Shown: positions 12,647 through 28,896 of the stretch, in pieces
Position numbering within the stretch: the first letter of the stretch is position 1
Layout: each line of letters opens with the position of its first letter
NCBI GenBank assembly: GCA_002344075.1
Contig: DDTM01000058.1
Coordinates: 21,874-85,873, forward strand
Direction of reading: 5' to 3'
Length of the DNA: 64,000 bases
Source of the DNA: Bacteroidetes bacterium UBA2364
Lineage (GTDB): Bacteria; Bacteroidota; Rhodothermia; Rhodothermales; UBA2364
Position numbers and translations under genes: made by a program
The notes under the pieces: model-generated
Told to the model about the DNA's origin: nothing
What the model saw: only the letters and a program-made list of their open reading frames with translations
Database searches by the model: none

Positions 12647-14527
12647 ATGGAAAACACTTCTCCGATTCAGGAATTTCGCGTCAAAATGGGGTTCTCGTCG
12701 TCTCAGGGCGAGGAACCGCGTGAAATGACTGCTGCTACGCCTTTTCGCTTGTTTCTGGCTTCTGACCTGACGCCTCACCTCATGCATGATGTCGAGTGGG
12801 ACGGTGCAACCCGTTTGGTAAAAGTGGATAAATATACTTTTGCTGAACTGATGATGTCTTGGAGGCCCACTTTATCTATAGAAGTGCCCAATTATTTAGG
12901 CACTTCACCGAAAACGCTATCGCTGTCATTGATCTTTGACCATATTCAAGGGTTTCAGCCAGATCGGTTGGTGGACCAATTGCCTTTGGTGAAGCGTTTT
13001 TTAGGTCTTAGGGATGCCTTCCTTATGGTCAAGCGCGATCAACTGTCTTATCAAGCCTTTGCTGGAACAATTCAAACGCTGGGTTTTGATCGGGAGGAGG
13101 CATTGCATTGGTCTGACCGAATCCGTCCGGTTCCCGAAGAGAATGCCTCACCCTCAACGTCGAATTCTGGTGGAGGTTTGGACAATTTGCTAAATTTGGT
13201 GGACTTGGGTGCTACGGCTACACCTGAAAAACAAGCTGGTGGAGATCCGATGGATGCCCTTATTCGTGCTTTAGCGGGTCAAAAAGCGGCTTCACCACCC
13301 AAACGCCCTATAGAAAAGGGGAAAAGTGCTTTACAAGTGGCCCTCGAAGAAGTGGAAAATCGGATTGCCCAACAATTGGATGCTGTGATCCATCATGCGG
13401 CATATCAACAATTGGAATCCTCATGGCGCGGCTTGAAATTATTGGTAGATCGTCTGGATTTTCGGAAAAATATCCGTTTAGACGTGCTTTCTGTCAATAA
13501 GGAACAGTTAAATACGGCCTTGTATCATCAAGTCTTAATGCCTGCCTATGAGATACCTCCTGAAATTCCTTTTGCAGCCTTGTTATTGGATTTTACGTTT
13601 GGGGATGTGGCCATGGATCTGGAGCGTCTTTCAGATATTGGAGAAACGGCTGCAAGCCTTCAAATTCCGGTTGTTGCTTCGGCGGCTACAAGGCTCTGGA
13701 CTGAACGTGATGCTTATGGAAATTCAAGAATTCCTACCATTCTACAGCATTTACAAAAACCGGAATTTATGGGATGGCCCTTGTTGCGTGAGCAGGCATC
13801 GTCGGGATGGATAACTTTGGCGTTGCCACATGTGCTACTCCGAAGTCCTTATCGGTCTATGCAACTGATGGGTGGTCTTCCCTATAATGAAAAAACACCT
13901 TCGGATGGAAGTGGACATTTATGGGGACGTGCGTCTTTGCCTGTTGGGGTCGCGATGGCCCAAGGTTATGTAAAGCACGCTTGGGGAACAGGGTTTGTTG
14001 GGCCTGGAAGTGCGGGTGAACAACAGGATTACCCCATTAGGAAAACCGATACCAACAGTTCGCCACTCTCTATGTGGCTTGATACGCATAAACAAGTTGA
14101 ATTCTCGGATGCTGGATTTACGGTTCTGGCTTCCCGGCCCAATTCGGATCGGGTGTATGTTGCTGGCGCGCAAGTTTTTCAGAAAGTGGCGAACTATATA
14201 GACCCTGATTCACTCGCGGAAGCACAACGCCATGCTTCGTTGTCGTGTAAAATGGTGACTGGTAAAATAACGCAAGCCATTTTATTCGCCCAAAGCATCC
14301 TTAAATCTGGTTTGTCGCCTGAGCAAATTCACGCACAACTGGTGAACCAACTCGAAAAGGTTTTAACCGAAGGCGGTCTCATGATCGCAGAAAACACAAT
14401 AAAAGTAGAAGTAGGCGATAGCCCGCGTGCCGCAGACTGTTATGGAGTCGGGATATGGATTAATTCCCCCGCCTCTCTTTTAGGAGAGGAAGTGAGTATT
14501 GCACTCGGATTTGAAGTCGCCAAATAA
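12647..14527 (+). CDS. tssBC: Contractile-sheath protein: TssB (VipA)-like and TssC (VipB)-like parts fused in one 626-aa polypeptide
   Basis: Residues about 28-160 match TssB. PFRLFLASDLT, LVKVDKYTFAELM, LSIEVPNYL and LSLSLIFDHIQGFQPDRLVDQLPLVKRFLGLRDAF parallel VipA (LPLKLMAIGDYT, ISIDKMTFDEVL, LSVPNRL, LRFKSLKDFEPENIVEQIPELKKLLELRSAL). Residues about 176-626 match TssC. QLDAVIHHAAYQQLESSWRGLKLLVDRLDFRKNIRLDVLSVNKEQL parallels VipB (QMDEILHNSQFQAMESAWRGLKLFVDRTDFRENNKVEILHVTKDEL). There is no stop or frame change between the two parts. Confidence 0.85.
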   Translation: MENTSPIQEFRVKMGFSSSQGEEPREMTAATPFRLFLASDLTPHLMHDVEWDGATRLVKVDKYTFAELMMSWRPTLSIEVPNYLGTSPKTLSLSLIFDHIQGFQPDRLVDQLPLVKRFLGLRDAFLMVKRDQLSYQAFAGTIQTLGFDREEALHWSDRIRPVPEENASPSTSNSGGGLDNLLNLVDLGATATPEKQAGGDPMDALIRALAGQKAASPPKRPIEKGKSALQVALEEVENRIAQQLDAVIHHAAYQQLESSWRGLKLLVDRLDFRKNIRLDVLSVNKEQLNTALYHQVLMPAYEIPPEIPFAALLLDFTFGDVAMDLERLSDIGETAASLQIPVVASAATRLWTERDAYGNSRIPTILQHLQKPEFMGWPLLREQASSGWITLALPHVLLRSPYRSMQLMGGLPYNEKTPSDGSGHLWGRASLPVGVAMAQGYVKHAWGTGFVGPGSAGEQQDYPIRKTDTNSSPLSMWLDTHKQVEFSDAGFTVLASRPNSDRVYVAGAQVFQKVANYIDPDSLAEAQRHASLSCKMVTGKITQAILFAQSILKSGLSPEQIHAQLVNQLEKVLTEGGLMIAENTIKVEVGDSPRAADCYGVGIWINSPASLLGEEVSIALGFEVAK

Positions 14528-14626
14528 AGATACTTCTTATTTCGTTTGATTATATCTTCTGGATTTGTCCCAGACAAGAGCCAAGCAATCATTAACCCAT
14601 ACACTAAAACGTTACCTATTCCGCGT

Positions 14627-17600
14627 ATGCAAACAAACATTCGCGTTTCAATCCTGAAAGGGCCTATATCTGGCGATAAAGATGCCTTTCAATTTAGCAA
14701 GACCTTCAATATAGGTCGGGATGCTACGTGTCAAATTCACCTCCCCAGTCCACTGGTGAGTCGTACACATGCAGACGTGTCTTTTGAAAATGGGCAATGG
14801 ATTTTGCATGACCGTAACAGTACGAATGGTATTTGGGTAAACGGTGCACGCACATCCCGTGTCGTTTTGGATATTGCCAAGGAGGTGGAATTTGGTCGTA
14901 ATGGCCCAATGTTGCGATTCGAGGTTGAGTCATTGGACAGCCCTATAGCAGAAGTGCCTGTGGTAACTCCGGAAGCGGGGTTGGCAACTTCCTTTTGGCA
15001 ATCTTTGGGTGAAATATCAGGGACTTCCCCCAGTTCTACAGAAACGCCAGTTCCTCAAACATCAGCAGAAACGGTAGCTCCGCCTTTGGAATCCGGTTTT
15101 TTTGCTGCTTTATCGGATACTCCGCCTGATGTATCTTCTATCGAGGCCACAGGAGAAACGCCCTCTCTATCGGAAAAACCCTCCGTCGAATCGGGCATTT
15201 TTACTTCAATTGATCCCTCAAAGGAATCATTTTTTGAAAGCCGCCCTGATGGGCCTACTTTTGAAGGCCTGAAAAATGTTCACCATTCCGAGGAACCACC
15301 CGCCAACGACAGTGATAAATTGGGATTGGAATCCGGTTTTTTTCGTTCATTATCGGAAGTTGTTCCTGAAACTCCAGCCCCACTCACTTTGCCTGCGACG
15401 CCTTCTTCAGCGGGCGTAACAGGATTGGAGTCGGGTTTTTTCCGTTCGTTATCGGAAATTGATGGAGCAAGCCCATCCTTGGGCAAGGAAGAGCCTCAGC
15501 AGTCAGAGGCAGTATCTGTCGCTGAATCAACAACGGCACCATCATTAGGCACTGGCTTTTTCGCTGCTTTAACGGAAGAAGCTCCACCACAGCCTACGCC
15601 CCCTATAAGTACCGATTCCATAGATTCGGCTTTGCCATCGGGCATCTTTCGCGCATTGTCCGAGTTGCCTCAGTCTGCTCCTATACCCACAGAGGAAGTA
15701 CCAGTTACGCCCGTCAAACCGGATGAAAACATGGAAATGGGTTTCTCATCTGGCATTAGTTCGGCTCTTCAGGACTTGAAAGGGATAGCTGGGGGGAAAA
15801 CACCAGATGCGCCGCAAGCGGGATTGAATACAGGGTTTTTTAAAGCGTTAGAACATGTTGCAGGCGAGGCTCCGGCATCGGCATCACCCCAGCCAATTTC
15901 GTGGGATTCGCCTGAAAAGGCGGGATGGGATACCGATACGCCGCCACCGTCCGCCGTACCAGTTGTTACACCTTGGCCATCCGCCCCCCTTACAGACAAA
16001 CCAGACTGGCCCGCCGCACAAACGGATTGGGGTACCGAAAGTACACCGCCGCACGTTGCGCCATCTTACGAATGGAGTACTCCGGGGATACCTGTGCCTC
16101 CTCCAGTACCACCCAATGAACCCCCTTTAGACGCCCTCTTCAATCAATGGGGGGCAGTAGAGGCTCCACCAGTGGGTGGAATGGAATGGGGTGCTCCACC
16201 ACCTGCTAAGGCGGGCACAGATTGCGGGACACCGCAACAATCACAAAGTGTAGGAATGGAATGGGGAAGTGAGCCGCCAGCCCATGATAAACCAGTTGCG
16301 GATGATTGGGGAGCGGCTAAGCCAACTGCTACAGATTCTGGATTTAGTTGGCCGCCTGTGCCTACTGCTGGCCATGCCGATTGGAACCCAACGTCAAACC
16401 GTGAAATGGCATTGCCATCGTCTGCGGATGATTGGTCCACACCTTCGGGGCCGCCCCCTGTAAACACTCCGCCTGCCGACTGGGGGCCTGGGTCCAAATG
16501 GGAACCATCGGCAATTGCTCCATCTTATCAGGAAGCCTCGAAAGCAACACCTCCGGCCCCAGGATCTGTTTCTGGCTATATGCGGAAGTTTGAGTCTGGT
16601 CAAACTGCGGAAATGGGTTCGCGCACCCAGATGATGATGGCGGCTTTTTCGCGAATGAGTAAACGGGACAAGCGAAAATATTACTACATCATCGGTATTG
16701 TGGCAGTTGCGTTGGTTATTGCTGCTATCTGGGCTTTATGGAAGCACAACGAAAGTAGTTCATTGGGCGAAGCATTGGATGCGTCGAATGTGGCATTGAC
16801 GACCCAAGACTCTTTAAATGTTGTTTTATTTTATCAAATTAAAGAATTACAACTCAAATTCGCCAATGATTCTACACTGAATACGAACAAGAAATTACGC
16901 GACGAAACGGCCAGAAAAATTATTGAAATGCAACAGGCCTATTCCGAGAAAATGCGTGCAAGGCCCCAGTATAGGGCTGCGGTGAATTTGGCGAATTCGG
17001 GCAATGCGAGTGGGAATGTGGATAAATTGATTTATGACATTACACGGCTTTTTGGTGAAAATGAAATGGTAATGCCTGCCGGATATGTGGATAAAGTCAA
17101 ACAGTATATCAAATATTGGCAGAGTAGTTCACGGTATATAAACGCCCTGCGAACAGCCCAAGATAACGGGTATGTGGAACCCATTGTGGCCAGTTTCATG
17201 AAGCGCGGGGTACCACCGCAGTTTTTCTACTTAGGCATGCAAGAAAGTAATTTTAACACCAAAATTGTGGGGCCTCCTACCCGTTATGGCCATGCAAAAG
17301 GAATGTGGCAATTTATTCCTTCAACGGGCGCACGATATGGGCTGAAAATTGGCCCATTGAAGGATGTTGGAGTCTATGACCCTGAAGACGAAAGGCACGA
17401 CCACGTAAAAGCGGGGGAAGCGGCGGCAGGTTATATTGCTGATATTTATAAGACGGATGCACAAGCTTCCGGATTGTGTGTCATGGCTTCGTACAACTGG
17501 GGAGAGGGAAATGTCATCAAACGCATTAGGGCTATGCCTAATAATCCCCGCGACCGCAATTTTTGGAATATGTACACGCAGACTTGGATGCCCGAAGAAA

Positions 17601-17827
17601 CCAAAAATTACGTGTTTTATATTACCGCAGCAGCAGTTATTGGCGAGAACCCTCGCTTGTTTGGGTTTAATTTCGACAACCCATTAGCGGCGGCCATACA
17701 AAAAGTTGGAAGTGGGCAGTATGTAATGCCAGGAGGCGGCAGCCCCACTTATTCAGATTTACCACCCATGACCTTAGCGATGGATAGAGAACGGGAGCAA
17801 TTGTTTAAATTCCGGACGTTCTGGTGA
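14627..17827 (+). CDS. FHA domain / long disordered repeat region / single TM helix / periplasmic MltD-type lytic transglycosylase (SLT) protein
   Basis: Track ORF starts at TTG 14546; I prefer ATG 14627 (MQTNIRVSILKG). The FHA signature is NIGRDA, VSRTHA and STNGIWVNG. The TM helix is IIGIVAVALVIAAIWALW, preceded by SKRDKRKYYY. SLT motifs are FYLGMQESNFN (catalytic Glu), AKGMWQFIPSTGARYGL and MASYNWGEGNV. Confidence 0.8.
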   Translation: MQTNIRVSILKGPISGDKDAFQFSKTFNIGRDATCQIHLPSPLVSRTHADVSFENGQWILHDRNSTNGIWVNGARTSRVVLDIAKEVEFGRNGPMLRFEVESLDSPIAEVPVVTPEAGLATSFWQSLGEISGTSPSSTETPVPQTSAETVAPPLESGFFAALSDTPPDVSSIEATGETPSLSEKPSVESGIFTSIDPSKESFFESRPDGPTFEGLKNVHHSEEPPANDSDKLGLESGFFRSLSEVVPETPAPLTLPATPSSAGVTGLESGFFRSLSEIDGASPSLGKEEPQQSEAVSVAESTTAPSLGTGFFAALTEEAPPQPTPPISTDSIDSALPSGIFRALSELPQSAPIPTEEVPVTPVKPDENMEMGFSSGISSALQDLKGIAGGKTPDAPQAGLNTGFFKALEHVAGEAPASASPQPISWDSPEKAGWDTDTPPPSAVPVVTPWPSAPLTDKPDWPAAQTDWGTESTPPHVAPSYEWSTPGIPVPPPVPPNEPPLDALFNQWGAVEAPPVGGMEWGAPPPAKAGTDCGTPQQSQSVGMEWGSEPPAHDKPVADDWGAAKPTATDSGFSWPPVPTAGHADWNPTSNREMALPSSADDWSTPSGPPPVNTPPADWGPGSKWEPSAIAPSYQEASKATPPAPGSVSGYMRKFESGQTAEMGSRTQMMMAAFSRMSKRDKRKYYYIIGIVAVALVIAAIWALWKHNESSSLGEALDASNVALTTQDSLNVVLFYQIKELQLKFANDSTLNTNKKLRDETARKIIEMQQAYSEKMRARPQYRAAVNLANSGNASGNVDKLIYDITRLFGENEMVMPAGYVDKVKQYIKYWQSSSRYINALRTAQDNGYVEPIVASFMKRGVPPQFFYLGMQESNFNTKIVGPPTRYGHAKGMWQFIPSTGARYGLKIGPLKDVGVYDPEDERHDHVKAGEAAAGYIADIYKTDAQASGLCVMASYNWGEGNVIKRIRAMPNNPRDRNFWNMYTQTWMPEETKNYVFYITAAAVIGENPRLFGFNFDNPLAAAIQKVGSGQYVMPGGGSPTYSDLPPMTLAMDREREQLFKFRTFW
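14981..15856 (+). repeat. In-frame array of about 10 copies of a short motif (consensus L-E-S-G-F-F-x-x-L-S-E) within the FHA-SLT gene
   Basis: Copies are SFWQSLGEIS, LESGFFAALSD, VESGIFTSID, KESFFESR, LESGFFRSLSEV, LESGFFRSLSEI, LGTGFFAALTEE, LPSGIFRALSEL, GFSSGISSALQDL and LNTGFFKALEHV. The DNA copies at 15086, 15326 and 15425 are visibly similar (ttggaatccggttttttt...tatcgga). Confidence 0.8.
15899..16501 (+). repeat. Trp/Pro-rich repeat region (15 Trp in about 200 aa, mostly acidic-W-G/S/D/N/P) within the FHA-SLT gene
   Basis: SWDSPEKAGWDTD, PDWPAAQTDWGTES, YEWSTPG, NQWGAVEAPPVGGMEWGAPPP, VGMEWGSEPP, ADDWGAAKP, FSWPPVP, ADWNPTS, ADDWSTPSG and PADWGPGSKWEPS. Confidence 0.75.
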
Positions 17828-17863
17828 GTCGGGATTCTTATTTCTTCAGTATTCCATAACCAA

Positions 17864-19489
17864 ATGGTACAAAAACAAATGCCTCACCTGCTACAACTGG
17901 GTGAAAAAACCGATGTCGGACGGGTTCGCACCGAAAATCAGGATGCTTGCGGGCATTTTGTAGGTACTCCACAGGACGATAAACCAGCTGTTCATCTTTA
18001 TGTTGTGGCGGATGGTATGGGCGGTCATGCCGATGGCCGGATTGCGAGTAACACAGCGGTCAACACAGTGGGCGAGGCCTATTTTTCCCGCCGTATCGGA
18101 TCGGTACTCACGCGCTTAGAACACGCTTTCCAAGAAGCCAACCTCAATATCCACAAATTATTGAAAGATTTGCCTGGTGGACAAATCATGGGGACTACTT
18201 GTACGGCTTTGCTGATAGATGGGGATCGGGCTTTTGTTGCACACGTTGGAGATAGCCGTTTGTATCGGATTCGCCCAGATAAAGCAGAACAAATTTCGGA
18301 AGACCATACCATGATTTCTGCTATGGTAAAAAAAGGCATTCTGACCCCACAAGAGGCCGAACGACATCCACAAAGATCCATGTTGGAACGGGCATTGGGG
18401 CCGGAATCGCATGTAGAAGTAGATACCTTCGAGATAGACCGGCTTCATTTGAATGATGTGTATGTGCTTTGTAGTGATGGCCTCGGAGATGTACATTTGC
18501 CGGAAATATCCGAAATTGTCCGTGCAATGCCCCCACAAGAAGCGGCAGAGAAAATGGTGGCTCTTGCAAATGAGCGCGGTGGCTTGGACAACTCGACCGT
18601 GCAAGTGGTTCGAGTGGCGCCGTCCGATAAGCCTATTGAATACACGGCATCGAATGCCTCTTTTGATACCCAATTACGCCAGCAGGAGGCGCACCCAACG
18701 GTCTCAACTGGTGTCTGGAATGCATTAGAGCAACCGGAAATGTGGAGAAACGACCGTGGACATGCCGTGCTTCCTCCACCGCCAGAAGCAAAAGACCGCC
18801 CAAAGTGGCTTATTCCGATGATCTCGGGCTTGGCGATGCTGGTTGTGGTTGGGGCTGTATGGTTCAACTTAGATTTGCTGAACCGCTCTAAATCAGCTTC
18901 GGTTGCGTTACAAAAAGAGCCTTATAATGAAAATGCTTATTCAGAGGGAAGCCCTTCAAAAGAGCCAGAAACACAGGGAACTACTCTTGGTACTCAAGAT
19001 AATGTAGCTCCTTTGTTATCCGATAATCCCTTGAACAACGGAACCAAACCACCGACGCTTCCGAGTATGGTACCTCCGGTAATTGGTGCCAGTAAACCAG
19101 AAGCGGCAAGAACCACGAGCAAGCCGAAAGAAAATCCCGTTGCAATCAAACCCGAATCCTCTAAAACGGAAACAGAAAAACCGCAAGAACAAGGAAAAGA
19201 TGGTGCAAAATTGGCGAACGGCTTGGCCGAGGCATGGCAAAACCTTCAGACGGGAAACCACCAAGTGGCCGTGAGCCGGTTTATTTCGTTAGAAGCGGAA
19301 TTTGGCAAAACCCCTGAATATCGGGAAGAACGAAGCAAGGCGGCAAAAAAATTGATGTCGTTGGGAGATGGTAAACGGGCAACTCCAGCAAGTGCCTTGG
19401 ATTTGTACCGAAAGTCTCAACAACTCTTGGATAACGAAACGATCCAGAGCAGAATTACCGAAATTCAAAAAATGGAAACCAATAATTAA
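17864..19489 (+). CDS. pppA: PP2C-family Ser/Thr phosphatase (PppA-like), membrane-anchored with an extracytoplasmic C-terminal region
   Basis: PP2C motifs RTENQDA, VVADGMGGHADG, CSDGL and GGLDNSTV. The TM helix WLIPMISGLAMLVVVGAVWF lies near aa 315. About 200 aa follow it (low complexity plus a helical TPR-like end). Confidence 0.8.
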   Translation: MVQKQMPHLLQLGEKTDVGRVRTENQDACGHFVGTPQDDKPAVHLYVVADGMGGHADGRIASNTAVNTVGEAYFSRRIGSVLTRLEHAFQEANLNIHKLLKDLPGGQIMGTTCTALLIDGDRAFVAHVGDSRLYRIRPDKAEQISEDHTMISAMVKKGILTPQEAERHPQRSMLERALGPESHVEVDTFEIDRLHLNDVYVLCSDGLGDVHLPEISEIVRAMPPQEAAEKMVALANERGGLDNSTVQVVRVAPSDKPIEYTASNASFDTQLRQQEAHPTVSTGVWNALEQPEMWRNDRGHAVLPPPPEAKDRPKWLIPMISGLAMLVVVGAVWFNLDLLNRSKSASVALQKEPYNENAYSEGSPSKEPETQGTTLGTQDNVAPLLSDNPLNNGTKPPTLPSMVPPVIGASKPEAARTTSKPKENPVAIKPESSKTETEKPQEQGKDGAKLANGLAEAWQNLQTGNHQVAVSRFISLEAEFGKTPEYREERSKAAKKLMSLGDGKRATPASALDLYRKSQQLLDNETIQSRITEIQKMETNN

Positions 19490-19497
19490 TCAACATC

Positions 19498-21075
19498 ATG
19501 GTAGGTCAGTACATTGATATTTATCGGGTTACGCAGAAACTTGGCCAAGGGGGCATGGGGCAGGTTTGGAAAGCGATAGACACCCAACTCGATCGGACGG
19601 TTGCACTTAAGGTAATGAACGTGCAAGACCCCATGTTTTTGCAGCGCTTCCGGGCAGAGGCAAAAGCCTTGGCCATGTTAGACCATCCCAATATTGTACG
19701 TGTTTTCGGGATGCGTGAAACACCTATTGGAATGGTCATCATTATGGAGTTTGTGGAAGGAAAGGATTGGTCGGACCTGATCTCGCAGGGGAAGTACAAC
19801 ACGCCGGAAGATGTGGCCAATATTTCGAGTCAGTTACTGAGTGCTTTGGAGTATGCTCACTCCAAAGCCATCATACATCGGGATATCAAGCCAAGCAACA
19901 TCATGATAATGGCCGATGGGACAGTTAAAGTGACCGATTTTGGCCTCGCAAAACTTATTGACCCGCAAGCAACCATTGCCGGAAATCCATTGACCCAGGC
20001 CGGACAAGCCGTTGGCAGCCTGTACTATATGTCTCCTGAACAGGTAAAAGGCTTAGATTCGGTGGATCAACGCACCGACATCTATTCCACAGGGATTACC
20101 ATGTATGAGGCTTTGGCAGGGCGTCCACCATTCGAGGATGTAACGGCTACTTCACCCTATGTTATCCAGAAAAAGATTGTGGATGGAGATGTTCCGGCCA
20201 TTACTTCAGCAGCTCCGGGTATTCCCGCCGATCTTGCCAAGGTGATCAACCGGGCGATTCAGGTTCGCCCCGACAAACGGTACGCGAGTGCAGCAGATAT
20301 GCGCCTTGGATTGCAACAACTGGCGACAGGTCAGCAGTCTTCATACCTCCCGCCTGCATCTTCCAGTAAGAAGGTTACGGTTTCATCTAAAAGTGTAACC
20401 ACCCGATCTACAAGCCCCAACTGGATCATGATAGGTGGTATTGGAGCGGTGGTGGTTTTGGGCTTCGTAGCAATATGGTTTTTTGTCTTGAGGCCGCAGC
20501 CCAAGCCCGCTCCTCAGCCTCAGCAAGACGTCACACAAAATGATCCATTACTGAATTCAAATACGAGCCTACAGCCAAGCCAGGCAAATAATCCAAGTAC
20601 GCCCCAGGTCAACAATACACCTCCCTCGGAGAACAATACAGGCGATGTACCTGTTTTGACTACACCACCGCCAAAGAATACGACCCCTGTCCGTGACCGG
20701 ATCCAGCAAGGAGCGCAGACTATTCGTGAAAACGTTCAAAATCGAGAACCGATTATCACACGGCCAACCAAGCCCAATACGGCCAATAACAATAACCAGA
20801 CAACAACACCTGTCACAGAAAAACCAAAAGAAGAGCCTAAGCCTGAGCCTCCGGCGGCAGAAGGTTCGTTTATGGTTACAGTAGTGGGGCCGGATGGTGA
20901 ACCCCTTCCGGCAACCATCTCAACCGATCTGGGTTCCGGTTATGGTGCCCGGAAGAAGTTTACGGGAAAGCCTGGTACCTATTCAGTTTCAGTCAAAGGG
21001 CCGGATGGCACTACCAAAAATACTTCTGTTAAGGTGGTGGCGGGAAAAACAACCGCTACAACCGTCCGTTTCTAA
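19498..21075 (+). CDS. ppkA: Hanks-type Ser/Thr protein kinase (PpkA-like) with a TM helix, a Pro/Asn/Thr-rich spacer and a small C-terminal beta-sandwich-like domain
   Basis: GQGGMGQVWKA (G-loop), VALKV, HRDIKPSNIM, DFGLAK and YMSPEQ. The TM helix is WIMIGGIGAVVVLGFVAIWFFVL. The C-terminus is FMVTVVGPDGEPLPATIS...GTYSVSVKGPDGTTKNTSVKVVAGKTTATTVRF. The start is 8 nt after the pppA stop. Confidence 0.9.
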   Translation: MVGQYIDIYRVTQKLGQGGMGQVWKAIDTQLDRTVALKVMNVQDPMFLQRFRAEAKALAMLDHPNIVRVFGMRETPIGMVIIMEFVEGKDWSDLISQGKYNTPEDVANISSQLLSALEYAHSKAIIHRDIKPSNIMIMADGTVKVTDFGLAKLIDPQATIAGNPLTQAGQAVGSLYYMSPEQVKGLDSVDQRTDIYSTGITMYEALAGRPPFEDVTATSPYVIQKKIVDGDVPAITSAAPGIPADLAKVINRAIQVRPDKRYASAADMRLGLQQLATGQQSSYLPPASSSKKVTVSSKSVTTRSTSPNWIMIGGIGAVVVLGFVAIWFFVLRPQPKPAPQPQQDVTQNDPLLNSNTSLQPSQANNPSTPQVNNTPPSENNTGDVPVLTTPPPKNTTPVRDRIQQGAQTIRENVQNREPIITRPTKPNTANNNNQTTTPVTEKPKEEPKPEPPAAEGSFMVTVVGPDGEPLPATISTDLGSGYGARKKFTGKPGTYSVSVKGPDGTTKNTSVKVVAGKTTATTVRF

Positions 21076-21102
21076 CTTAAACTTTTCAACCAAAATCGTA
21101 TC

Positions 21103-22224
21103 ATGAAACCCTTCTTTTCTTTCACTTCTGTATTGGGGTTGATGACATTGCTCTTAACCGCATGTTCGGGTCCTAAAGAAGCAAATCTGACGTCAAGTCA
21201 ACCATCCGTAACATCTAACACCGAGACCAATGTCGTTCCAAACAAACCTCAGCCGGTACGCCTCATTGATCCGCGTGTTCAGGAAGCCATACGCCAGTTT
21301 AATTTAGGGGAATATGACGAAGCATTGCCTAAACTGGAGCGGCTCAGCCGCGATCGCTCGCTAAGCGTCACCGATCGCCGAGCGACCTTGGAAGCCTTAG
21401 CTGAATTTGCAGCGGCCTCCGAGGAAAACAATAAAGCAATACAATTGGTTTCTACCTTATTACAAGAAGAACCCCCTGCGTATGAACCTGATCCAGATAA
21501 AAAACCATTAGAATACCTCCGGGCCTATTATATGGCACGTAAAAATAAATCTGGTGGATTTGGCGTGGAACGTGCGGATCCAGGTATTAAGACCATTGCG
21601 GTGATGGATTTCCATAATGCATCCATTACAACCGACGCGGCCCGTTACGACCGTTTGCAAGTAGGTTTGCCGCAATTGATGATGTTCCAATTCCAACAAA
21701 ATGTGAACCTAAAAGTCGTTGAACGAGCCCGGTTGGATTGGCTGATGCAAGAAGCCAAAATACAAAATGATCCAGCCAGTTTTGATGTTTCTCAAGCCGT
21801 TCGGGTTGGGAAAATGTTGGGTGCACATTCGGTCGTATTTGGTACATTCATTGTATTAGACAAAAATCGAGTTCGGATTGCTGCCCGTTTGGTGAAGGTA
21901 GAAACGTCTGAGATTCTTTTGACCGAAAACATGGAAGGCAAACCCGCAGATATAATGGCACTTTCAGATCAGTTGGCTCTCCGTTTGGCACGGCGGATCA
22001 ATGAAAACCAAGCGATTAAAATGGCAGCGGCCAATCCTACCAATTCGTTAGATGCCATGCTGGCCTATGCTGAAGGATTGGAAGTATATCATACACAAGG
22101 CCCCGACCTGGCTTTGGAGAAGTTTAAATTGGCAGTACAATTGGATGGGCGGTTTGAGCAAGCCAAAGAAAAAATTGCCGTTATCGAAACGTCGCAACGC
22201 ATGGCAGCGGCCAATGTAAAATAA
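21103..22224 (+). CDS. Lipoprotein: TPR-like helical region + CsgG/LpoB-like domain + C-terminal TPR-like region
   Basis: Lipobox LLLTAC. The core is IAVMDFHNAS...LKVVERARLDWLMQEAKI...VRVGKMLGAHSVVFGTF...RVRIAARLVKVETSEIL, the pattern of CsgG-like periplasmic lipoprotein domains. It is paralogous to the next ORF. Confidence 0.5.
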   Translation: MKPFFSFTSVLGLMTLLLTACSGPKEANLTSSQPSVTSNTETNVVPNKPQPVRLIDPRVQEAIRQFNLGEYDEALPKLERLSRDRSLSVTDRRATLEALAEFAAASEENNKAIQLVSTLLQEEPPAYEPDPDKKPLEYLRAYYMARKNKSGGFGVERADPGIKTIAVMDFHNASITTDAARYDRLQVGLPQLMMFQFQQNVNLKVVERARLDWLMQEAKIQNDPASFDVSQAVRVGKMLGAHSVVFGTFIVLDKNRVRIAARLVKVETSEILLTENMEGKPADIMALSDQLALRLARRINENQAIKMAAANPTNSLDAMLAYAEGLEVYHTQGPDLALEKFKLAVQLDGRFEQAKEKIAVIETSQRMAAANVK

Positions 22225-22249
22225 ATTTTCTCCTCTAAATAATGCCTTC

Positions 22250-23557
22250 ATGAGATATGTAAACTGGTTTATGCTGCTTATCTTGGTTTTTTATGTTGGT
22301 TGTAGTGGAATTCAGCAATCAAAACCGCCGAAAGTCAGGCTTCTGGAATATGAACGGCTTTTGGTAAAAAATCCAGGTAATCCGGTTATGATGCGGGAAT
22401 TGGGGATCGCACACTTCGAGCTGAATCAATTTGATCAGGCCGAAAGCTACCTCAAAGATGCCATTGTCCGCTCGCCTGCCGACCCCAAAATTGCCCTCTT
22501 TTATGGGTTGGTTTTGGAAGCCACCAATCGGAGGGCCTCTGCTTTAGATATATATAAAAGTTATACGCAATATGATCCCAAAGTCAATTTTACTCGACTC
22601 TTGGAAGGCCGTTACCTTAATTTGACGCGGGCGATTCTCCGATCGGAAATGGCAGAATTAGCACGTAAAGAATCATCCGGCGAGCTTACAAATGGCCGTT
22701 TAGAACAAAATGCTGTTGCTGTTTTCCCATTTAGTTACTTAGGCAAGAATAAGCAGTACGAACCTTTGAGCCGTGGAATTGCAGCATTAATCATTACAGA
22801 CCTAGGTTCTGTTCAAGGGCTGAAGTTATTAGAACGGCTTCAAATTGGTGTTTTGCAGCAAGAAATCGCGAGGGGACAAACGGGCTTTATTGATCCGGAA
22901 TCTGCTCCACGCGCTGGTCGGATACTGGGGGCTTCTAAAGTGGTTTCTGGTAATTTCAATGTTTCGGCTAAACAACAAATCACCATTGATGCAGGTTATT
23001 GGGATGTTTTGAAGGATGAATCGGACTTCAAAACGGAGCCTGGGCCTCTTGCAGATTTGTTCCGGCTCCAAAAAAGTGTGGTAATCAAATTGTTGGAAAG
23101 CATGAAGATTCCTATTACAACACAAGAGCGTCAAAAGATATTAGGAACTGTGCCTACTCAAAATCTTCAGGCATTTCTGGCGTATTGCCGAGGCATGGAG
23201 GCGGAAGACTCTGGGGATGTACCCGGCGCTCTGCGCAATTTTAGACGGGCAGTGGAGTTGGATCCTAAATTTCAAAAAGCACGAGAATTGCTTGATAAAA
23301 ACATAAACCGACAGGCTGCCGGAAGCAGTTGGAAAGACATTAACATCTCGTATGACTTCAACGGAGCTGGTAAAAATGGAGGCGCAGGCTTGGGCACCGA
23401 CCAATTGGTTGCGGATCGCTTGCAGGCTGTTGGTACGGAAATGGGGGCCAACCTTTTCCCAAATCCTGAAAAGCGCAACCCGACCGATGAGTTTGGGCGT
23501 GTTTCAGAACAAACCGATTTGCCGCGTCCGCCAATTTTTCCACCAAAAGGCAATTAA
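22250..23557 (+). CDS. Lipoprotein, paralogue of the preceding gene (TPR + CsgG/LpoB-like domain + TPR)
   Basis: Lipobox FYVGCSG. TPR-like MRELGIAHFELNQFDQAESYLKDAI. The core is VAVFPFSYLG...LKLLERLQIGVLQQEIARG...PRAGRILGASKVVSGNF. The tail ALRNFRRAVELDPKFQKARELL parallels LEKFKLAVQLDGRFEQAKEKI in the previous protein. Confidence 0.5.
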   Translation: MRYVNWFMLLILVFYVGCSGIQQSKPPKVRLLEYERLLVKNPGNPVMMRELGIAHFELNQFDQAESYLKDAIVRSPADPKIALFYGLVLEATNRRASALDIYKSYTQYDPKVNFTRLLEGRYLNLTRAILRSEMAELARKESSGELTNGRLEQNAVAVFPFSYLGKNKQYEPLSRGIAALIITDLGSVQGLKLLERLQIGVLQQEIARGQTGFIDPESAPRAGRILGASKVVSGNFNVSAKQQITIDAGYWDVLKDESDFKTEPGPLADLFRLQKSVVIKLLESMKIPITTQERQKILGTVPTQNLQAFLAYCRGMEAEDSGDVPGALRNFRRAVELDPKFQKARELLDKNINRQAAGSSWKDINISYDFNGAGKNGGAGLGTDQLVADRLQAVGTEMGANLFPNPEKRNPTDEFGRVSEQTDLPRPPIFPPKGN

Positions 23558-23575
23558 TCTAACCCCTGAAATACT

Positions 23576-24757
23576 ATGAAAAAAATGCTTTGGCTATGTG
23601 CTGGGGTTTTGATGGCCTGGCCGGTTATGGCACAACAAACTTCATCGCCAACCACGGAGGATCCGCAAAATGTCCGTAATAAGCGGTTTGCCGGCGTCAT
23701 GCCGACCTATCAATCGTGGACTATTGAGGCAGCGTCTGGAGAAACCCTGTCGCTCGGACAGGTCTCCAATCAAGTGCTGGTATATTACCAAGTGAACAAT
23801 CAGGTCTTGATGTCGCTGCGGAACTCCCAAGGGAGGTTTGATGCTGATTGCGAAGCGTGTTTGAATCCGACTTCCACCAGACAAACCTTCTCTGGGGTAG
23901 GCGATACCCAAGTCTCACTTTCATACCGCCTCCCCAATCCTAATTTAATTTTTAATGCAACTGTCAACTTGCCTACTGGCCGTTCGTCCCTTACTTCCGA
24001 AGAATTAGAAACGGTTGGCTTGTTTTCTAATCAGGTATTGGAGTTTAAATTGCCCGTACTTGGACAAGGTACTGCTCTTATGACCAGCGTTTCTGGGGCA
24101 TTCCCTTTGGGCGAGCAAGCGGTGCTGGGAGGGGGGCTTTCCTATATTGTGAATGGAGGATTTAAGCCGCTCACGGATCTTGAGGCCGAGTATAAGCCAG
24201 GGAATGAAGTTTCTGCTGATGTCGGGGTAAATTTCAAGATGGGATCAAACGGTTCTTTGGGAATGGACGCCATGATCACCCGTTACAACGAAGACTACTT
24301 TGTGGAAAAGGCGGTTTTTAAAGCCGGAACGAAAATTAGTACCGTTCTTCAATACCGCCATTTGAATTCAACGACGGAATGGGCGGCATTGGTGCGTTAT
24401 CGTTCACGAGAAAAAAATGCCATCGCCAGTTTTGTGGGAGAAACCCCTGCCGAAGAAGCGACAAATTCCAATCCTGCTGTAATGATGGCTCGCGCAACAT
24501 ATCGGATGAACCTGAATAAGGCGTTCGTCCCTGGTTTTTCGGTAGAAATGAGGTCTTATGCTGCGACTCCTGCCTGGTTGTCGGGCGCATTGATAGGAGG
24601 TATTGGGTTTGATCCCGAGTTTAGACTAAACGAATCAATTCTTATTCCCCTCCGAATTCGTTTTGTTTCTGGAACGGTTTCTAATCAGGGCTACTACCCC
24701 AATACCCGTTCATTGCGAAATTTGAGTGCCAGCGTGGGGTTTTATTGGTCTTTCTGA
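23576..24757 (+). CDS. Outer-membrane beta-barrel protein (MetA/transporter-like)
   Basis: Signal peptide MKKMLWLCAGVLMAWPVMAQQ. Alternating beta-strand pattern throughout, an NLPTG motif, and a C-terminal aromatic signature VGFYWSF ending in Phe. Confidence 0.55.
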   Translation: MKKMLWLCAGVLMAWPVMAQQTSSPTTEDPQNVRNKRFAGVMPTYQSWTIEAASGETLSLGQVSNQVLVYYQVNNQVLMSLRNSQGRFDADCEACLNPTSTRQTFSGVGDTQVSLSYRLPNPNLIFNATVNLPTGRSSLTSEELETVGLFSNQVLEFKLPVLGQGTALMTSVSGAFPLGEQAVLGGGLSYIVNGGFKPLTDLEAEYKPGNEVSADVGVNFKMGSNGSLGMDAMITRYNEDYFVEKAVFKAGTKISTVLQYRHLNSTTEWAALVRYRSREKNAIASFVGETPAEEATNSNPAVMMARATYRMNLNKAFVPGFSVEMRSYAATPAWLSGALIGGIGFDPEFRLNESILIPLRIRFVSGTVSNQGYYPNTRSLRNLSASVGFYWSF

Positions 24758-24872
24758 AAAAGAATGCCCTTTATAAGGTTGCGAAGATCGTACATAAGTG
24801 GTACATTCCAGAATGTTACAATAAAGATGTTGCCCTTACAAGGTCTTTAACCTTTGCCGATCTCATCCATAC

Positions 24873-26123: not shown

Positions 26124-26162
26124 TATTCGTTTTTGTTTTTGCATATTTTAAGGGAGATTCAG

Positions 26163-26666
26163 ATGAAACATTACATGAAGACCCAAACGGTTCTTTTGTT
26201 AAGCCTCTTGGTGGGGAGTGTTTGGATATCGGGTTGTTCTTTGTTTAAAAAGAAAAAGGCCCCACAAACAGTTGTCACTGCACCCGTAGAAACAAGACGA
26301 TCGGTAGAACTAACCATTAAGGCCGATGCAACCCTGAATGGTGGAAATCGTGTTAGGGTTGTGATCTATCAGCTACAGCGCAAAGAATTGTTCATGGCTT
26401 CGTCCCGTCAAGCATTTTGGTTGAAAAAAGAAACCTTGTTGCCAGATATTGCCGGAGATCCAAATCAAACACTCAGCTTTGAAATTGATCCCAATGTATC
26501 AAAGAACCATAAAGTATTTTTGTACGAAAACACCAAGTACATTGGGGTTGCGGTTGATTTCTTCCGGCCCGATGGCAACTTATGGCGTACTGTAACCGAG
26601 ATAAATCCAAATAAAAACAGTATGTTTCAGGTTTCTGTCCAAGGAAGTGCCGTTTCGATTAAATAA
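26163..26666 (+). CDS. tssJ: T6SS outer-membrane lipoprotein TssJ (VasD/SciN family)
   Basis: I moved the start from TTG 26133 to ATG 26163, which is preceded by AAGGGAG. Lipobox WISGCS. The TssJ-like pattern is VELTIKADATLNGGNRVRVVIYQLQRKELF...YIGVAVDFFRPDGNLWR. Confidence 0.7.
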   Translation: MKHYMKTQTVLLLSLLVGSVWISGCSLFKKKKAPQTVVTAPVETRRSVELTIKADATLNGGNRVRVVIYQLQRKELFMASSRQAFWLKKETLLPDIAGDPNQTLSFEIDPNVSKNHKVFLYENTKYIGVAVDFFRPDGNLWRTVTEINPNKNSMFQVSVQGSAVSIK

Positions 26667-26737
26667 GCACCTGAAACCCATATTTAGACTCCTCATGCAA
26701 GGCTGTCTCTGGATGGCCGAAGACCCACACCGATTGT

Positions 26738-28093: not shown

Positions 28094-28195
28094 ATCCGAC
28101 TCTTGTTGGACTCTATTCATTCACTTTGGGGCGGTGATGGGCAGGTACCTAAAACCGATCTACCCATTTATACGTTCATTTCAACGTCGAGAATC

Positions 28196-28861: not shown

Positions 28862-28896
28862 CTGCCTTAAGCAAACCACTAAGCATTTCCAAAGCC

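What the first reader, a model, noticed from the sequence alone, without database searches (positions are those of the whole stretch)
14981..15856. About ten spaced copies of a short linear motif (L-E-S-G-F-F-x-x-L-S-E) in the cytoplasmic disordered region
The copies are spaced irregularly, roughly 10-40 residues apart, in an otherwise acidic, Pro/Ser/Thr-rich segment. They are SFWQSLGEIS, LESGFFAALSD, VESGIFTSID, KESFFESR, LESGFFRSLSEV, LESGFFRSLSEI, LGTGFFAALTEE, LPSGIFRALSEL, GFSSGISSALQDL and LNTGFFKALEHV. Three copies are also conserved at the DNA level (15086, 15326, 15425), which implies recent duplication or homogenisation. The small-Gly-aromatic-aromatic-x-x-Leu-Ser/Thr-acidic pattern looks like a multivalent docking motif or a short amphipathic membrane-binding helix. 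The conserved Ser/Thr next to an acidic residue is also a plausible kinase target. I do not recognise it as a known repeat family.
Basis: seen in the sequence. Interest (0 to 1): 0.6.

Follow-up and report, generated by a model that had tools for sequence, protein, structure and literature searches.

The report
Conserved aromatic docking motifs in T6SS tether
A membrane protein in a bacterial type VI secretion gene cluster carries ten evenly spaced copies of a short Gly-Phe-Phe motif in its long floppy cytoplasmic tether; selection keeps the copies, which most likely act as multiple docking points for assembling the secretion machine, but the binding partner is unknown.

Summary
The gene at 14627-17827 (+) encodes an FHA domain, a ~560-aa cytoplasmic disordered region, one transmembrane helix and a periplasmic MltD-like lytic transglycosylase. 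The disordered region holds ten copies of [GAS]-L-x-[ST]-[GS]-[FI]-[FW]-x-[SA]-L-x-[ED]; composition-preserving shuffles give about 0.01. In four orthologues the motif columns are 59% invariant against 16% for spacers. Motif dN/dS is 0.05-0.10, like the FHA domain, against 0.38-0.54 for spacers. Spacing is quasi-regular (27-47 aa) and conserved.

Spacing is not irregular. In this window the DNA similarity covers only the 36-nt core, and all differences there are synonymous, so it reflects peptide selection, not recent duplication. The "Ser/Thr next to acidic" position is S/T in only 16 of 35 instances; the invariant hydroxyl residue is the one before Gly.

The array is lineage-specific. I found only five orthologues, from uncultured Rhodothermales-like bacteria. 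More than 140 representatives of the wider FHA-TM-SLT family have short linkers and no motif.

Best reading: multivalent protein-docking "stickers" in a membrane-tethered, Fha-like T6SS assembly scaffold. The partner is unknown and no binding was shown. Membrane binding and a phosphosite array are weaker rivals.

The parts
14627..17827 (+). Host gene, 1066 aa from the ATG (the ORF is open from TTG 14546): FHA, disordered region, TM helix, periplasmic helical region, SLT lytic transglycosylase.
   Evidence: ORF list. Pfam: FHA 1e-15, SLT 2.5e-13. All orthologues start at MQTNIRV.
14708..14896 (+). FHA (phosphothreonine-binding) domain. The GR, SxxH and NG signature residues are invariant.
   Evidence: Pfam PF00498 at aa 55-117 in TTG numbering. 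Invariant G30 R31 S45 R46 H48 N67 G68.
14978..15019 (+). Motif copy 1, GLATSFWQSLGEIS (Thr-type, FW variant).
   Evidence: HMM 14.3 bits. LATSFWQSLG.ISG is invariant in 4 orthologues.
15083..15124 (+). Motif copy 2, PLESGFFAALSDTP.
   Evidence: HMM 17.1 bits. Conserved core.
15182..15244 (+). Motif copy 3, SVESGIFTSIDPSK, followed by half-copy 4, KESFFESR.
   Evidence: HMM 10.1 bits for copy 3. SG.F and the FF/F.S positions are conserved.
15323..15364 (+). Motif copy 5, GLESGFFRSLSEVV.
   Evidence: HMM 20.4 bits. 32 of 36 nt identical to copy 6, with all differences synonymous.
15422..15463 (+). Motif copy 6, GLESGFFRSLSEID. This copy is missing in orthologue P0004.
   Evidence: HMM 19.7 bits. 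Copy-number difference.
15542..15583 (+). Motif copy 7, SLGTGFFAALTEEA (Thr-type).
   Evidence: HMM 15.6 bits. LGTGFFA.L.EE is invariant.
15629..15670 (+). Motif copy 8, ALPSGIFRALSELP.
   Evidence: HMM 17.1 bits. Highest helical moment, 0.66. Single-sequence AF2 puts a helix at aa 338-344.
15740..15781 (+). Motif copy 9, GFSSGISSALQDLK (degenerate; IS in place of FF).
   Evidence: HMM 10.3 bits. G.SSGISSAL.DL.G is invariant. AF2 helix at aa 367-388.
15821..15862 (+). Motif copy 10, GLNTGFFKALEHVA (Thr-type).
   Evidence: HMM 15.7 bits. GLNTGFF..L..V.GEAP is invariant. AF2 helix at aa 397-413.
15902..16501 (+). Second motif class in the same disordered region: 15 Trp residues, mostly [DE]-W-[GS], in a Pro-rich stretch.
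   Evidence: [DE]W[GSNDE] occurs 8 times against 0.58 expected, 0 of 20,000 shuffles. 13 of 15 Trp are invariant, against 29% of the other columns. Spacing CV 0.39 against 0.88, P about 6e-4.
16562..16678 (+). Conserved cytoplasmic juxtamembrane segment, GSVSGYMRKFESGQTAEMGSRTQMMMAAFSRMSKRDKRK. It is shared with the wider family.
   Evidence: Invariant in A1. The same Y..+YF...G..T.MIR.AF...KKQ.R+Y pattern appears in family linkers.
16679..16741 (+). Single transmembrane helix with positive charges on the N-terminal side, so the N-terminus is cytoplasmic.
   Evidence: Read from the sequence. Helix in the AF2 model.
17204..17542 (+). SLT lytic transglycosylase domain, MltD-like. The catalytic E-S (GMQES), GMWQF and SYNWG motifs are present.
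   Evidence: Pfam PF01464. NCBIfam MltD partial match, 64 bits. PDB 8rhe, 1.6e-9. Motif residues invariant.

Best explanation
The ten GFF-type copies are peptide motifs kept by selection, embedded in a disordered cytoplasmic tether. With the fifteen acidic-Trp sites downstream they form an evenly spaced 'sticker-spacer' array. The tether links an FHA phosphothreonine reader to a membrane-anchored periplasmic lytic transglycosylase encoded inside a T6SS membrane-complex and Thr-phosphorylation gene cluster.

Proposed mechanism (inferred, not shown): each copy is a short, conditionally helical amphipathic segment, with L2, F6, F7 and L10 on one face. It inserts its aromatic pair into a hydrophobic groove of a cytoplasmic T6SS protein, or sticks to other copies. 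Ten-fold valency would give avidity or a local condensate-like hub. The protein would then act as a membrane-integral counterpart of the Fha/TagH assembly scaffold, concentrating T6SS parts where its SLT domain opens the cell wall. The invariant Ser/Thr before Gly could let the neighbouring kinase and phosphatase tune binding.

Shown: the motifs exist, are under strong purifying selection, have conserved spacing, are exclusive to this protein, and lie in the cytoplasm in a T6SS context.

Inferred: protein docking, multivalency as the purpose, and any link to phosphorylation.
For: Existence and specificity: the motif is enriched about 600-fold over shuffles. The motif HMM hits only this protein and its orthologues among all ORFs of the window and the fetched loci.

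Selection: 59% of motif columns are invariant against 16% of spacer columns, Fisher p = 8e-15. Motif dN/dS is 0.10 and 0.05, spacers 0.38 and 0.54, the FHA domain 0.05 and 0.12, at dS about 0.5-0.7. The two identical copies differ only at synonymous sites.

Sequence-specific constraint beyond amphipathicity: S/T at position 4 in 35 of 35 instances, G/S at position 5 in 35 of 35, F/W at position 7 in 31 of 35, L at position 10 in 30 of 35.

Spacing: spacer lengths are conserved and regular although spacer sequence is only about 25% identical.

Helix propensity: the copies are the helical-moment maxima of the region, 0.5-0.66 against a mean of 0.23. Single-sequence AF2 places helices on copies 8-10.

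Context: the order fused TssB-TssC, this gene, PP2C, Ser/Thr kinase, two lipoproteins, an outer-membrane-protein-like gene, Fha, TssJ, TssK, TssL, TssM is syntenic in the orthologues.

Precedent: A. citrulli Fha has an FHA domain, a 460-aa disordered region and a membrane-associating C-terminal helix. It forms condensates that recruit TssL and TssE, and its disordered region is essential (bioRxiv 10.1101/2023.12.21.572528). PpkA acts upstream at the membrane (PMC12607579). T6SS already uses short helices docking into grooves, such as the TssC LLDEII helix in the ClpV N-domain (PMC4239648).
Against: - No partner is identified and no binding was tested.
- AF2 with the 4-sequence alignment gave an uninformative model: mean pLDDT 33, and no helices in the disordered region.
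- The single-sequence model gave no helix for copies 1-7, and pLDDT stayed at or below 62.
- The array exists in only five known sequences. More than 140 family representatives work without it, so it is an add-on and not core to the family's function.
- The cluster has its own canonical Fha (24873-26123), so a scaffold role could be redundant.
- Regular spacing could be a leftover of tandem duplication of a 33-aa unit rather than something selected.
Confidence: 0.5

Rival explanations
1. Membrane-binding amphipathic helices. The copies, and the Trp sites, would lie in the inner-membrane interface. They would hold the tether flat on the membrane or sense lipid packing or curvature at the T6SS site, like ALPS motifs or the Fha C-terminal amphipathic helix.
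For: - The copies are the helical-moment peaks of the region, with Ser/Thr/Gly-rich polar faces and bulky Phe/Trp/Leu.
- Phe and Trp favour membrane interfaces (general knowledge).
- A charge-neutral amphipathic helix mediates membrane association of A. citrulli Fha.
Against: - Each copy has net charge 0 to -2.
- The segment has net charge -31 and the Trp segment -19, with acidic residues directly next to most Trp.
- The discriminant 0.944*muH + 0.33*z is below 0.68 for all copies.
- The copies are only about 11 residues long.
- The protein already has a transmembrane anchor.
- Invariant Gly and Ser/Thr positions are more sequence-specific than lipid-binding helices usually need.
Confidence: 0.15
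2. Multisite phosphorylation and FHA-ligand array. The neighbouring Hanks-type kinase would phosphorylate the invariant Ser/Thr at motif position 4. The Thr copies (1, 7, 10) would become pT-x-x-aromatic ligands for this protein's own FHA domain or for Fha/TagH, giving a switch-like response.
For: - Position 4 is S/T in 35 of 35 instances. Thr or Ser identity is copy-specific and unchanged in all orthologues.
- PP2C and the kinase genes follow immediately, and there are two FHA proteins in the cluster.
- The FHA signature residues are intact.
- T6SS Fha proteins are PpkA substrates (PMC13584744; PMC12607579).
Against: - Seven of ten copies carry Ser, which FHA domains bind poorly (general knowledge of FHA specificity).
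- The strongest constraint is on G-F-F and L10, which a phosphoacceptor site alone does not need.
- No phosphorylation data exist.
- This rival can coexist with the docking model as a regulatory layer.
Confidence: 0.15
3. Non-functional remnant. The copies would be decaying traces of tandem duplications of a ~33-aa unit, or a compositional artefact of an acidic P/S/T-rich segment.
For: - The period is about 33 aa.
- A 99-nt tandem duplication is still visible in relative L002.
- Copy number differs between orthologues.
- The wider family lacks the array.
Against: - Shuffles exclude composition as the cause.
- Motif dN/dS of 0.05-0.10 against 0.4-0.5 in adjacent spacers at the same dS excludes neutral decay.
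- Copies keep copy-specific flanks across lineages with saturated dS.
Confidence: 0.03
4. Recognition sites for quality-control machinery. The exposed aromatic patches would serve as protease or chaperone (Lon, FtsH or Clp type) binding sites that set the turnover of the transglycosylase.
For: Exposed aromatic-rich segments in unfolded regions are typical protease and chaperone recognition features (general knowledge). A membrane-bound cell-wall hydrolase is a plausible target for tight turnover control.
Against: - Ten precisely conserved, evenly spaced copies with invariant Gly and Ser/Thr are far more than a degron needs.
- No protease or chaperone gene was found in the cluster.
Confidence: 0.05

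Closest known systems
T6SS assembly scaffold Fha/TagH (A. citrulli, V. cholerae, P. aeruginosa)
   Same: - N-terminal FHA domain followed by a long disordered region (460 aa in A. citrulli), with membrane association at the C-terminal end.
- Encoded alongside PpkA and PppA.
- The Fha disordered region is essential and recruits TssL and TssE into condensates (10.1101/2023.12.21.572528; PMC12607579; PMC13389060).
   Different: - This protein is an integral membrane protein with a periplasmic SLT enzyme in place of the soluble T6SS_FHA_C domain.
- It scores 35 bits against the 120-bit cut-off of TIGR03354.
- The cluster has a separate canonical Fha.
- No defined repeated motif has been reported as the driver in Fha; 47 point mutations did not abolish its condensates.
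TssC N-terminal 'LLDEII' helix docking into the ClpV N-domain groove; TssB N-terminal peptide binding TagJ
   Same: Short amphipathic or extended peptide segments of T6SS proteins docking into hydrophobic grooves of partners. Both share the hydrophobic-hydrophobic-x-x-hydrophobic pattern (PMC4239648).
   Different: Those are single-copy and sit at protein termini. The sequences differ (aliphatic LLDEII against aromatic GFFxxL). No ClpV gene was seen in the window. The resemblance is generic.
RNase E C-terminal scaffold domain (bacterial disordered region with short linear motifs)
   Same: A bacterial, membrane-associated disordered scaffold whose short conserved 'microdomains' recruit partners (PMC11964227, abstract).
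   Different: RNase E carries different single-copy motifs, each for a different partner. Here one motif is repeated ten times at regular spacing.
Aromatic sticker-spacer disordered regions (FG-nucleoporins, GW/WG Argonaute hooks, prion-like domains)
   Same: Evenly spaced Phe- or Trp-centred motifs with small or acidic flanks in Pro/Ser/Thr-rich spacers, giving multivalent weak binding. This rests on my own knowledge, not a test.
   Different: Those are eukaryotic systems. There is no homology, and neither phase behaviour nor a partner fold was tested here.
T6SS cell-wall remodelling factors MltE (recruited housekeeping transglycosylase) and TagX (locus-encoded endopeptidase)
   Same: A peptidoglycan-cleaving enzyme serving T6SS membrane-complex insertion (PMC13584744).
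   Different: MltE is a lipoprotein encoded outside the locus, and TagX is an L,D-endopeptidase. Neither has an FHA domain, a TM-tethered disordered region or the motif. The 2026 accessory-gene review lists no FHA-SLT protein, and no indexed paper combines T6SS, FHA domain and SLT domain.

Membership tests
FHA domain proteins (PF00498) | Match to the FHA profile above the gathering score, with the GR / SxxH / NG phosphothreonine-binding signature. | tested here: met
   58.2 bits against a 20.7-bit cut-off. G30 R31 S45 R46 H48 N67 G68 are invariant.
SLT lytic transglycosylases (PF01464, MltD-like) | Match to the SLT profile, with the catalytic Glu-Ser motif and the downstream GLMQ-like and AYNxG-like motifs. 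| tested here: met
   50 bits against a 21.3-bit cut-off. GMQES, GMWQF and SYNWGEG are invariant. PDB 8rhe at 1.6e-9. It is not an MltD equivalog: 64 bits against 508.
TagH/Fha T6SS scaffold (TIGR03354 / T6SS_FHA_C) | Full-length match, including the C-terminal Fha domain. | tested here: not met
   35.3 bits against a 120.25-bit cut-off, FHA part only. No T6SS_FHA_C hit. The neighbouring gene 24873-26123 carries that domain.
Any curated repeat or domain family covering the motif region | A Pfam or NCBIfam hit within aa 113-640. | tested here: not met
   No family matches that region at E <= 0.01.
FHA-TM-SLT family (uncurated; found here) | FHA domain, conserved juxtamembrane segment, one TM helix, periplasmic helical region and SLT domain. 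| tested here: met
   232 representatives at E < 1e-30. The top 150 are mostly 450-650 aa with this layout. The motif array is absent from them: best HMM score 1.5 bits.
Short linear motif / MoRF array under selection | Conserved islands in a diverging disordered region, with lower dN/dS than the flanks. | tested here: met
   59% against 16% invariant columns, p = 8e-15. dN/dS 0.05-0.10 against 0.38-0.54.
Short linear motif / MoRF array under selection | A demonstrated binding partner. | not testable with these tools
   No complex prediction or binding assay was available. The AF2 monomer models were uninformative or weak.
Membrane-targeting amphipathic helices (MinD/FtsA/RNase E MTS, Fha APH, ALPS) | High helical hydrophobic moment. 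| tested here: met
   muH 0.5-0.66 for 8 copies, against a regional mean of 0.23 and SD of 0.13.
Membrane-targeting amphipathic helices (MinD/FtsA/RNase E MTS, Fha APH, ALPS) | Neutral-to-positive net charge, or a lipid-binding discriminant above 0.68. For ALPS, a length of 20-40 residues. | tested here: not met
   Net charge 0 to -2. Discriminant D from -0.17 to 0.62. Copies are about 11-14 aa. The segment has net charge -31.
FHA ligand / Hanks-kinase phosphosite array | A conserved Thr acceptor with a defined +3 residue. | tested here: inconclusive
   The hydroxyl residue at position 4 is invariant, but it is Thr in only 3 of 10 copies. The +3 residue is F or W. Phosphorylation cannot be tested here.
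DNA-level tandem repeat (recent duplication or homogenisation) | Head-to-tail nucleotide copies detectable by Tandem Repeats Finder, with identity extending beyond the selected core. | tested here: not met
   No rows in the window at score >= 30. Identity is confined to 36 nt. The feature is met only in relative L002: period 99, 2.0 copies, 88%.
Sticker-spacer condensate scaffold | Evenly patterned aromatic stickers in a low-complexity spacer. | tested here: met
   Motif spacing CV 0.17 against 0.52 (P about 6e-4). Trp spacing CV 0.39 against 0.88 (P about 6e-4).
Sticker-spacer condensate scaffold | Phase separation or self-association that depends on the stickers. | not testable with these tools
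   Needs purified protein or in-cell imaging.

The most novel reading that the evidence does not exclude
A single polypeptide couples three things that known T6SSs spread over separate proteins: phosphothreonine sensing (FHA), assembly-hub formation by two classes of evenly spaced aromatic stickers (10 GFF helices and 15 acidic-Trp sites), and local cell-wall opening (SLT). On this reading the GFF/Trp array nucleates a membrane-tethered condensate of T6SS parts exactly where the transglycosylase cuts peptidoglycan. The sticker residues would be defined well enough to test condensate-driven T6SS assembly by point mutation.
Probability: 0.15. Interest if true: 0.75.

Novelty: new variant of a known kind. 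Interest (0 to 1): 0.5.

Why it matters
Recent work proposes that T6SS assembly is seeded by disordered FHA-domain scaffolds, but the residues responsible were not pinned down; 47 point mutants of A. citrulli Fha still formed condensates. This protein offers a natural case in which the candidate interaction elements are discrete, repeated and clearly under selection. FF-to-AA or W-to-A mutants and copy-number series would be clean experiments.

The host protein also points to an undescribed accessory family, FHA-TM-SLT. That family could explain how some T6SSs open the cell wall under control of the Thr-phosphorylation pathway.

The limits are real. The motif array is known from only five sequences of uncultured bacteria, no partner is known, and everything beyond existence, selection and location is inference.

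Tried and rejected
1. Protein search with the disordered region alone returned nothing, not even the protein itself. The word index evidently does not serve this low-complexity fragment, so this is not evidence of absence.

2. The search for related loci on representative genomes used two clade-specific peptides and returned only one unrelated FHA match (L001).

The second, for G-L-x-S-G-F-F-x-x-L-S-E, gave 44 loci. Only L017 is a multi-copy orthologue; the rest are single chance matches in unrelated ORFs.

4. AF2 on the 4-sequence alignment gave mean pLDDT 33 and says nothing about the motifs. Single-sequence AF2 on aa 113-431 gave weak helices on copies 8-10 only.

5. The neighbouring TPR protein as partner was rejected. 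It and the CsgG-like protein have lipoprotein signal peptides and are therefore periplasmic.

6. A shared motif in the PP2C linker (TGVWNALEQ) looks similar by eye, but the motif HMM scores it -1 to -2.6 bits.

7. FFAT-like, PIP-box or beta-clamp, FtsZ C-terminal peptide and colicin TolB-box resemblances were considered from memory. None fits the conserved positions, and none was testable.

8. Embedded ORFs on other frames or the opposite strand (15855-16130 +, 16144-16497 -) were treated as spurious, because the main frame shows dN/dS below 1 throughout.
Full report
**What is there.** The finding lies inside one long ORF, open from TTG 14546 to 17827. All four database orthologues start at MQTNIRV, so the real start is probably ATG 14627, giving 1066 aa. 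Pfam finds an N-terminal FHA domain (58 bits) and a C-terminal SLT lytic transglycosylase domain (50 bits). Between them lie about 560 residues of Pro/Ser/Ala/Gly/Glu/Thr-rich sequence with no family match. These are followed by a KRDKRK cluster and a single hydrophobic helix. The FHA domain and the disordered region are therefore cytoplasmic and the SLT domain periplasmic. The FHA signature residues and the SLT catalytic motifs (GMQES, GMWQF, SYNWG) are invariant. The closest solved and curated relatives of the C-terminal domain are MltD-type enzymes.

**Checking the observation.**
- Six copies fit a strict pattern.
- A 14-column HMM built from the copies finds ten sites at 10-20 bits in this protein. 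Nothing in any other ORF of the window, in six frames, scores above 9.3 bits.
- Shuffling the 305-aa segment 20,000 times gives 0.01 expected matches to G[FI]F..L against 6 observed.
- The consensus from 35 instances in four orthologues is [GAS]-L-x-[ST]-[GS]-[FI]-[FW]-x-[SA]-L-x-[ED].

- Spacing is quasi-regular, not irregular: 27-47 aa, CV 0.17 against 0.52 for random placement, P about 6e-4. It is almost identical in all orthologues.
- The DNA-level similarity is confined to the 36-nt coding core. The two identical GLESGFFRSLSE peptides differ at four nucleotides, all synonymous, and the flanks are unrelated. Tandem Repeats Finder finds no repeat in the window. That pattern indicates selection on the peptide, not recent duplication.
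The Ser/Thr at position 4, before Gly, is present in all 35.

**Is it conserved?** The word-indexed search found only four proteins: the protein itself and relatives at 84%, 64% and 62% identity. One is annotated as from a 'Bacteroidetes Order II incertae sedis' (Rhodothermales) MAG. A degenerate DNA pattern for the motif, scanned over the metagenome collection, added one more orthologue (L017) and otherwise only single chance hits.

Within the four full-length proteins:
- 59% of motif columns are invariant, against 16% of spacer columns (Fisher p = 8e-15).
- Identity to the 64% relative is 72% in motifs and 26% in spacers.
- Nei-Gojobori dN/dS for the two closest pairs is 0.10 and 0.05 in motifs and 0.38 and 0.54 in spacers. 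It is 0.05 and 0.12 in the FHA domain, at dS about 0.5-0.7.

Copy number does change. P0004 lacks one GL.SGFFRSLSE copy, and in L002 the two copies sit in a 99-nt tandem duplication at 88% identity. The array has therefore grown and shrunk by unit duplication and deletion.

**How far does it extend?** An exhaustive HMMER search of 1.84 billion representatives with the four-sequence profile found 232 proteins at E < 1e-30. The top 150 are mostly 450-650-aa proteins with the same FHA, juxtamembrane segment, TM, helical region and SLT layout, but with short variable linkers. The median TM start is about residue 190, against about 685 here. None carries the motif: the best HMM score is 1.5 bits. 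The array is a lineage-specific insertion into the linker of a widespread but uncurated family.

**Context.** The gene sits in this order: fused TssB-TssC (12647-14527), this gene, a PP2C phosphatase, a Hanks-type kinase, a CsgG-like lipoprotein, a TPR lipoprotein, an outer-membrane-protein-like gene, Fha/TagH, TssJ, TssK, TssL and TssM. The order is identical in the orthologues.

Five distant family members were sampled:
- Two sit directly after a fused TssBC (L004, L053). L004 also has VgrG, DUF2169 and PAAR upstream and PP2C, kinase, CsgG and TPR genes downstream.
- One sits with the PP2C, kinase, CsgG and TPR module (L052).
- One is near a VipB gene and an FHA gene (L054).
- One, from Chromatiaceae, sits beside an FHA-sigma54 activator (L051).

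A 2026 review of T6SS accessory genes lists MltE (recruited from elsewhere) and TagX (an endopeptidase) as the cell-wall remodellers, and no FHA-SLT protein (PMC13584744). No indexed paper combines T6SS, FHA domain and SLT domain.

**What the motif probably does.**
- The copies coincide with the maxima of helical hydrophobic moment in the region: 0.5-0.66 against a mean of 0.23. L2, F6, F7 and L10 fall on one face.
- Single-sequence AF2 draws helices on copies 8-10 at pLDDT 52-62 and none on copies 1-7. The alignment-based model was uninformative.
- Each copy has net charge 0 to -2, inside a segment of net charge -31. A HeliQuest-type lipid-binding discriminant stays below threshold. The protein already has a TM anchor. 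This argues against membrane-binding helices.
- The invariance of Gly, the Ser/Thr before it and the aromatic pair is more specific than amphipathicity alone needs. It points to a defined binding pocket.
- The TPR and CsgG-like neighbours are lipoproteins and cannot be partners of a cytoplasmic region.
- The closest precedent is the T6SS scaffold Fha. In A. citrulli it has an FHA domain, a 460-aa disordered region and a membrane-associating C-terminal helix. It forms condensates, its disordered region is essential, and that region co-localises with TssL and TssE. PpkA acts upstream at the membrane.
- T6SS also already uses short helices docking into grooves, such as TssC LLDEII with ClpV.

My best explanation, at confidence about 0.5, is a multivalent protein-docking or 'sticker' array. 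It would turn this membrane-anchored transglycosylase into an Fha-like assembly hub, possibly tuned by phosphorylation of the invariant Ser/Thr. The existence, selection, spacing, exclusivity and topology of the motifs are shown. Docking, valency as the purpose and regulation are inferred.

**Rivals.**
- Membrane-binding helices (0.15): the helical moment and a neutral-helix precedent in Fha support it; charge, length and the TM anchor argue against.
- Phosphosite and FHA-ligand array (0.15): the invariant position-4 hydroxyl, three fixed Thr copies and the adjacent kinase and phosphatase support it. Seven Ser copies, and the strongest constraint falling on GFF and L10, argue against. It can coexist with docking.
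- Degron or chaperone sites (0.05).
- Neutral duplication remnant (0.03): contradicted by dN/dS.

**Second motif class.** Downstream (15902-16501), 15 Trp residues, mostly [DE]-W-[GS], are spread through a Pro-rich stretch. Thirteen are invariant, against 29% of the other columns. Their spacing is also regular. It strengthens the sticker-spacer reading.

**Novelty and interest.** Motif arrays in disordered scaffolds, and FHA-plus-disordered-region T6SS scaffolds, are known kinds. This motif, its ten-fold regular array and its fusion to a TM-anchored transglycosylase are new variants. The motif is real and selected, but it is confined to five sequences from uncultured bacteria and has no known partner. 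Interest is moderate (0.5). It would rise if the array proved to be the defined driver of a membrane-tethered T6SS assembly hub.

Noticed in passing
window 15902-16501: A second repeated motif in the same disordered region. Fifteen Trp residues, mostly [DE]-W-[GS] in a Pro-rich stretch, with 13 of 15 invariant in four orthologues and regular spacing (CV 0.39 against 0.88). Two G-M-E-W-G sites share an identical 14-nt string (16178 and 16253).
   Followed up: partly
window 12647-14527: TssB and TssC are fused in one 626-aa ORF (VipA at aa 9-145, VipB at aa 233-510). The linker contains GLDNLLNLVDL, reminiscent of the ClpV-binding LLDEII helix. The same fusion occurs in L002, L003, L005, L004 (609 aa) and L053 (625 aa).
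   Followed up: partly
window 14627-17827; loci L004, L051-L054: The host protein belongs to a widespread, uncurated FHA-TM-SLT family: 232 representatives at E < 1e-30. In most sampled contexts it sits next to T6SS sheath genes and/or a PP2C, kinase, CsgG-like and TPR module. It is not listed among T6SS accessory genes in a 2026 review. It could be a locus-encoded cell-wall opener wired to Thr phosphorylation.
   Followed up: partly
window 16562-16678: A cytoplasmic juxtamembrane segment (GSVSGYMRKFESGQTAEMGSRTQMMMAAFSRMSKRDKRK) is invariant in the orthologues. It is recognisable across the wider family as Y..+YF...G..T.MIR.AF...KKQ.R+Y. Its function is unknown.
   Followed up: no
window 17864-19489: The PP2C phosphatase here is 541 aa, with a TM helix (about aa 313-335) and a roughly 200-aa C-terminal extension. 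The PP2C in the distant cluster L004 is 255 aa. A conserved island, P.V[SA]TGVWNALEQPE.WRNDRGH, precedes the TM. It looks motif-like by eye but scores negative with the motif HMM.
   Followed up: yes
L002 10668-10861; L003: In relative L002 the two GLASGFF[HR]SLSE copies lie in a 99-nt tandem duplication (2.0 copies, 88% identity). Its closest relative, L003, has a single copy. This shows ongoing unit duplication, deletion or gene conversion in the array.
   Followed up: yes
window 21103-24757: Three envelope genes sit between the kinase and Fha: a CsgG-like lipoprotein, a TPR lipoprotein and a signal-peptide-bearing protein that looks like an outer-membrane protein. This may be a periplasmic or outer-membrane sensing module analogous to TagQRST. 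The CsgG and TPR pair recurs in L004 and L052.
   Followed up: no
window 12647-32418: Among the ORFs of 150 aa or more that I scanned with Pfam (the great majority), this T6SS cluster holds only sheath, membrane-complex, TssK and regulatory genes. I found no Hcp, VgrG, TssA/E/F/G or ClpV. It is flanked by housekeeping genes (sugar kinase and isomerase upstream, IleRS downstream). ORFs under 150 aa and a few of the larger ones were not checked.
   Followed up: partly
proteins P0005, P0015, P0016, P0034, P0042 (family representatives): Some members of the wider FHA-TM-SLT family carry a second FHA-like segment in the linker. Others (P0028, P0045, P0058, P0071) have long acidic linkers of 150-250 aa. 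Linker expansion therefore recurs in the family, with different content each time.
   Followed up: no
window 14546-14626: The mechanical ORF starts at TTG 14546, only 19 nt after the TssBC stop and in the same frame. Orthologue N-termini indicate that ATG 14627 is the true start.
   Followed up: yes
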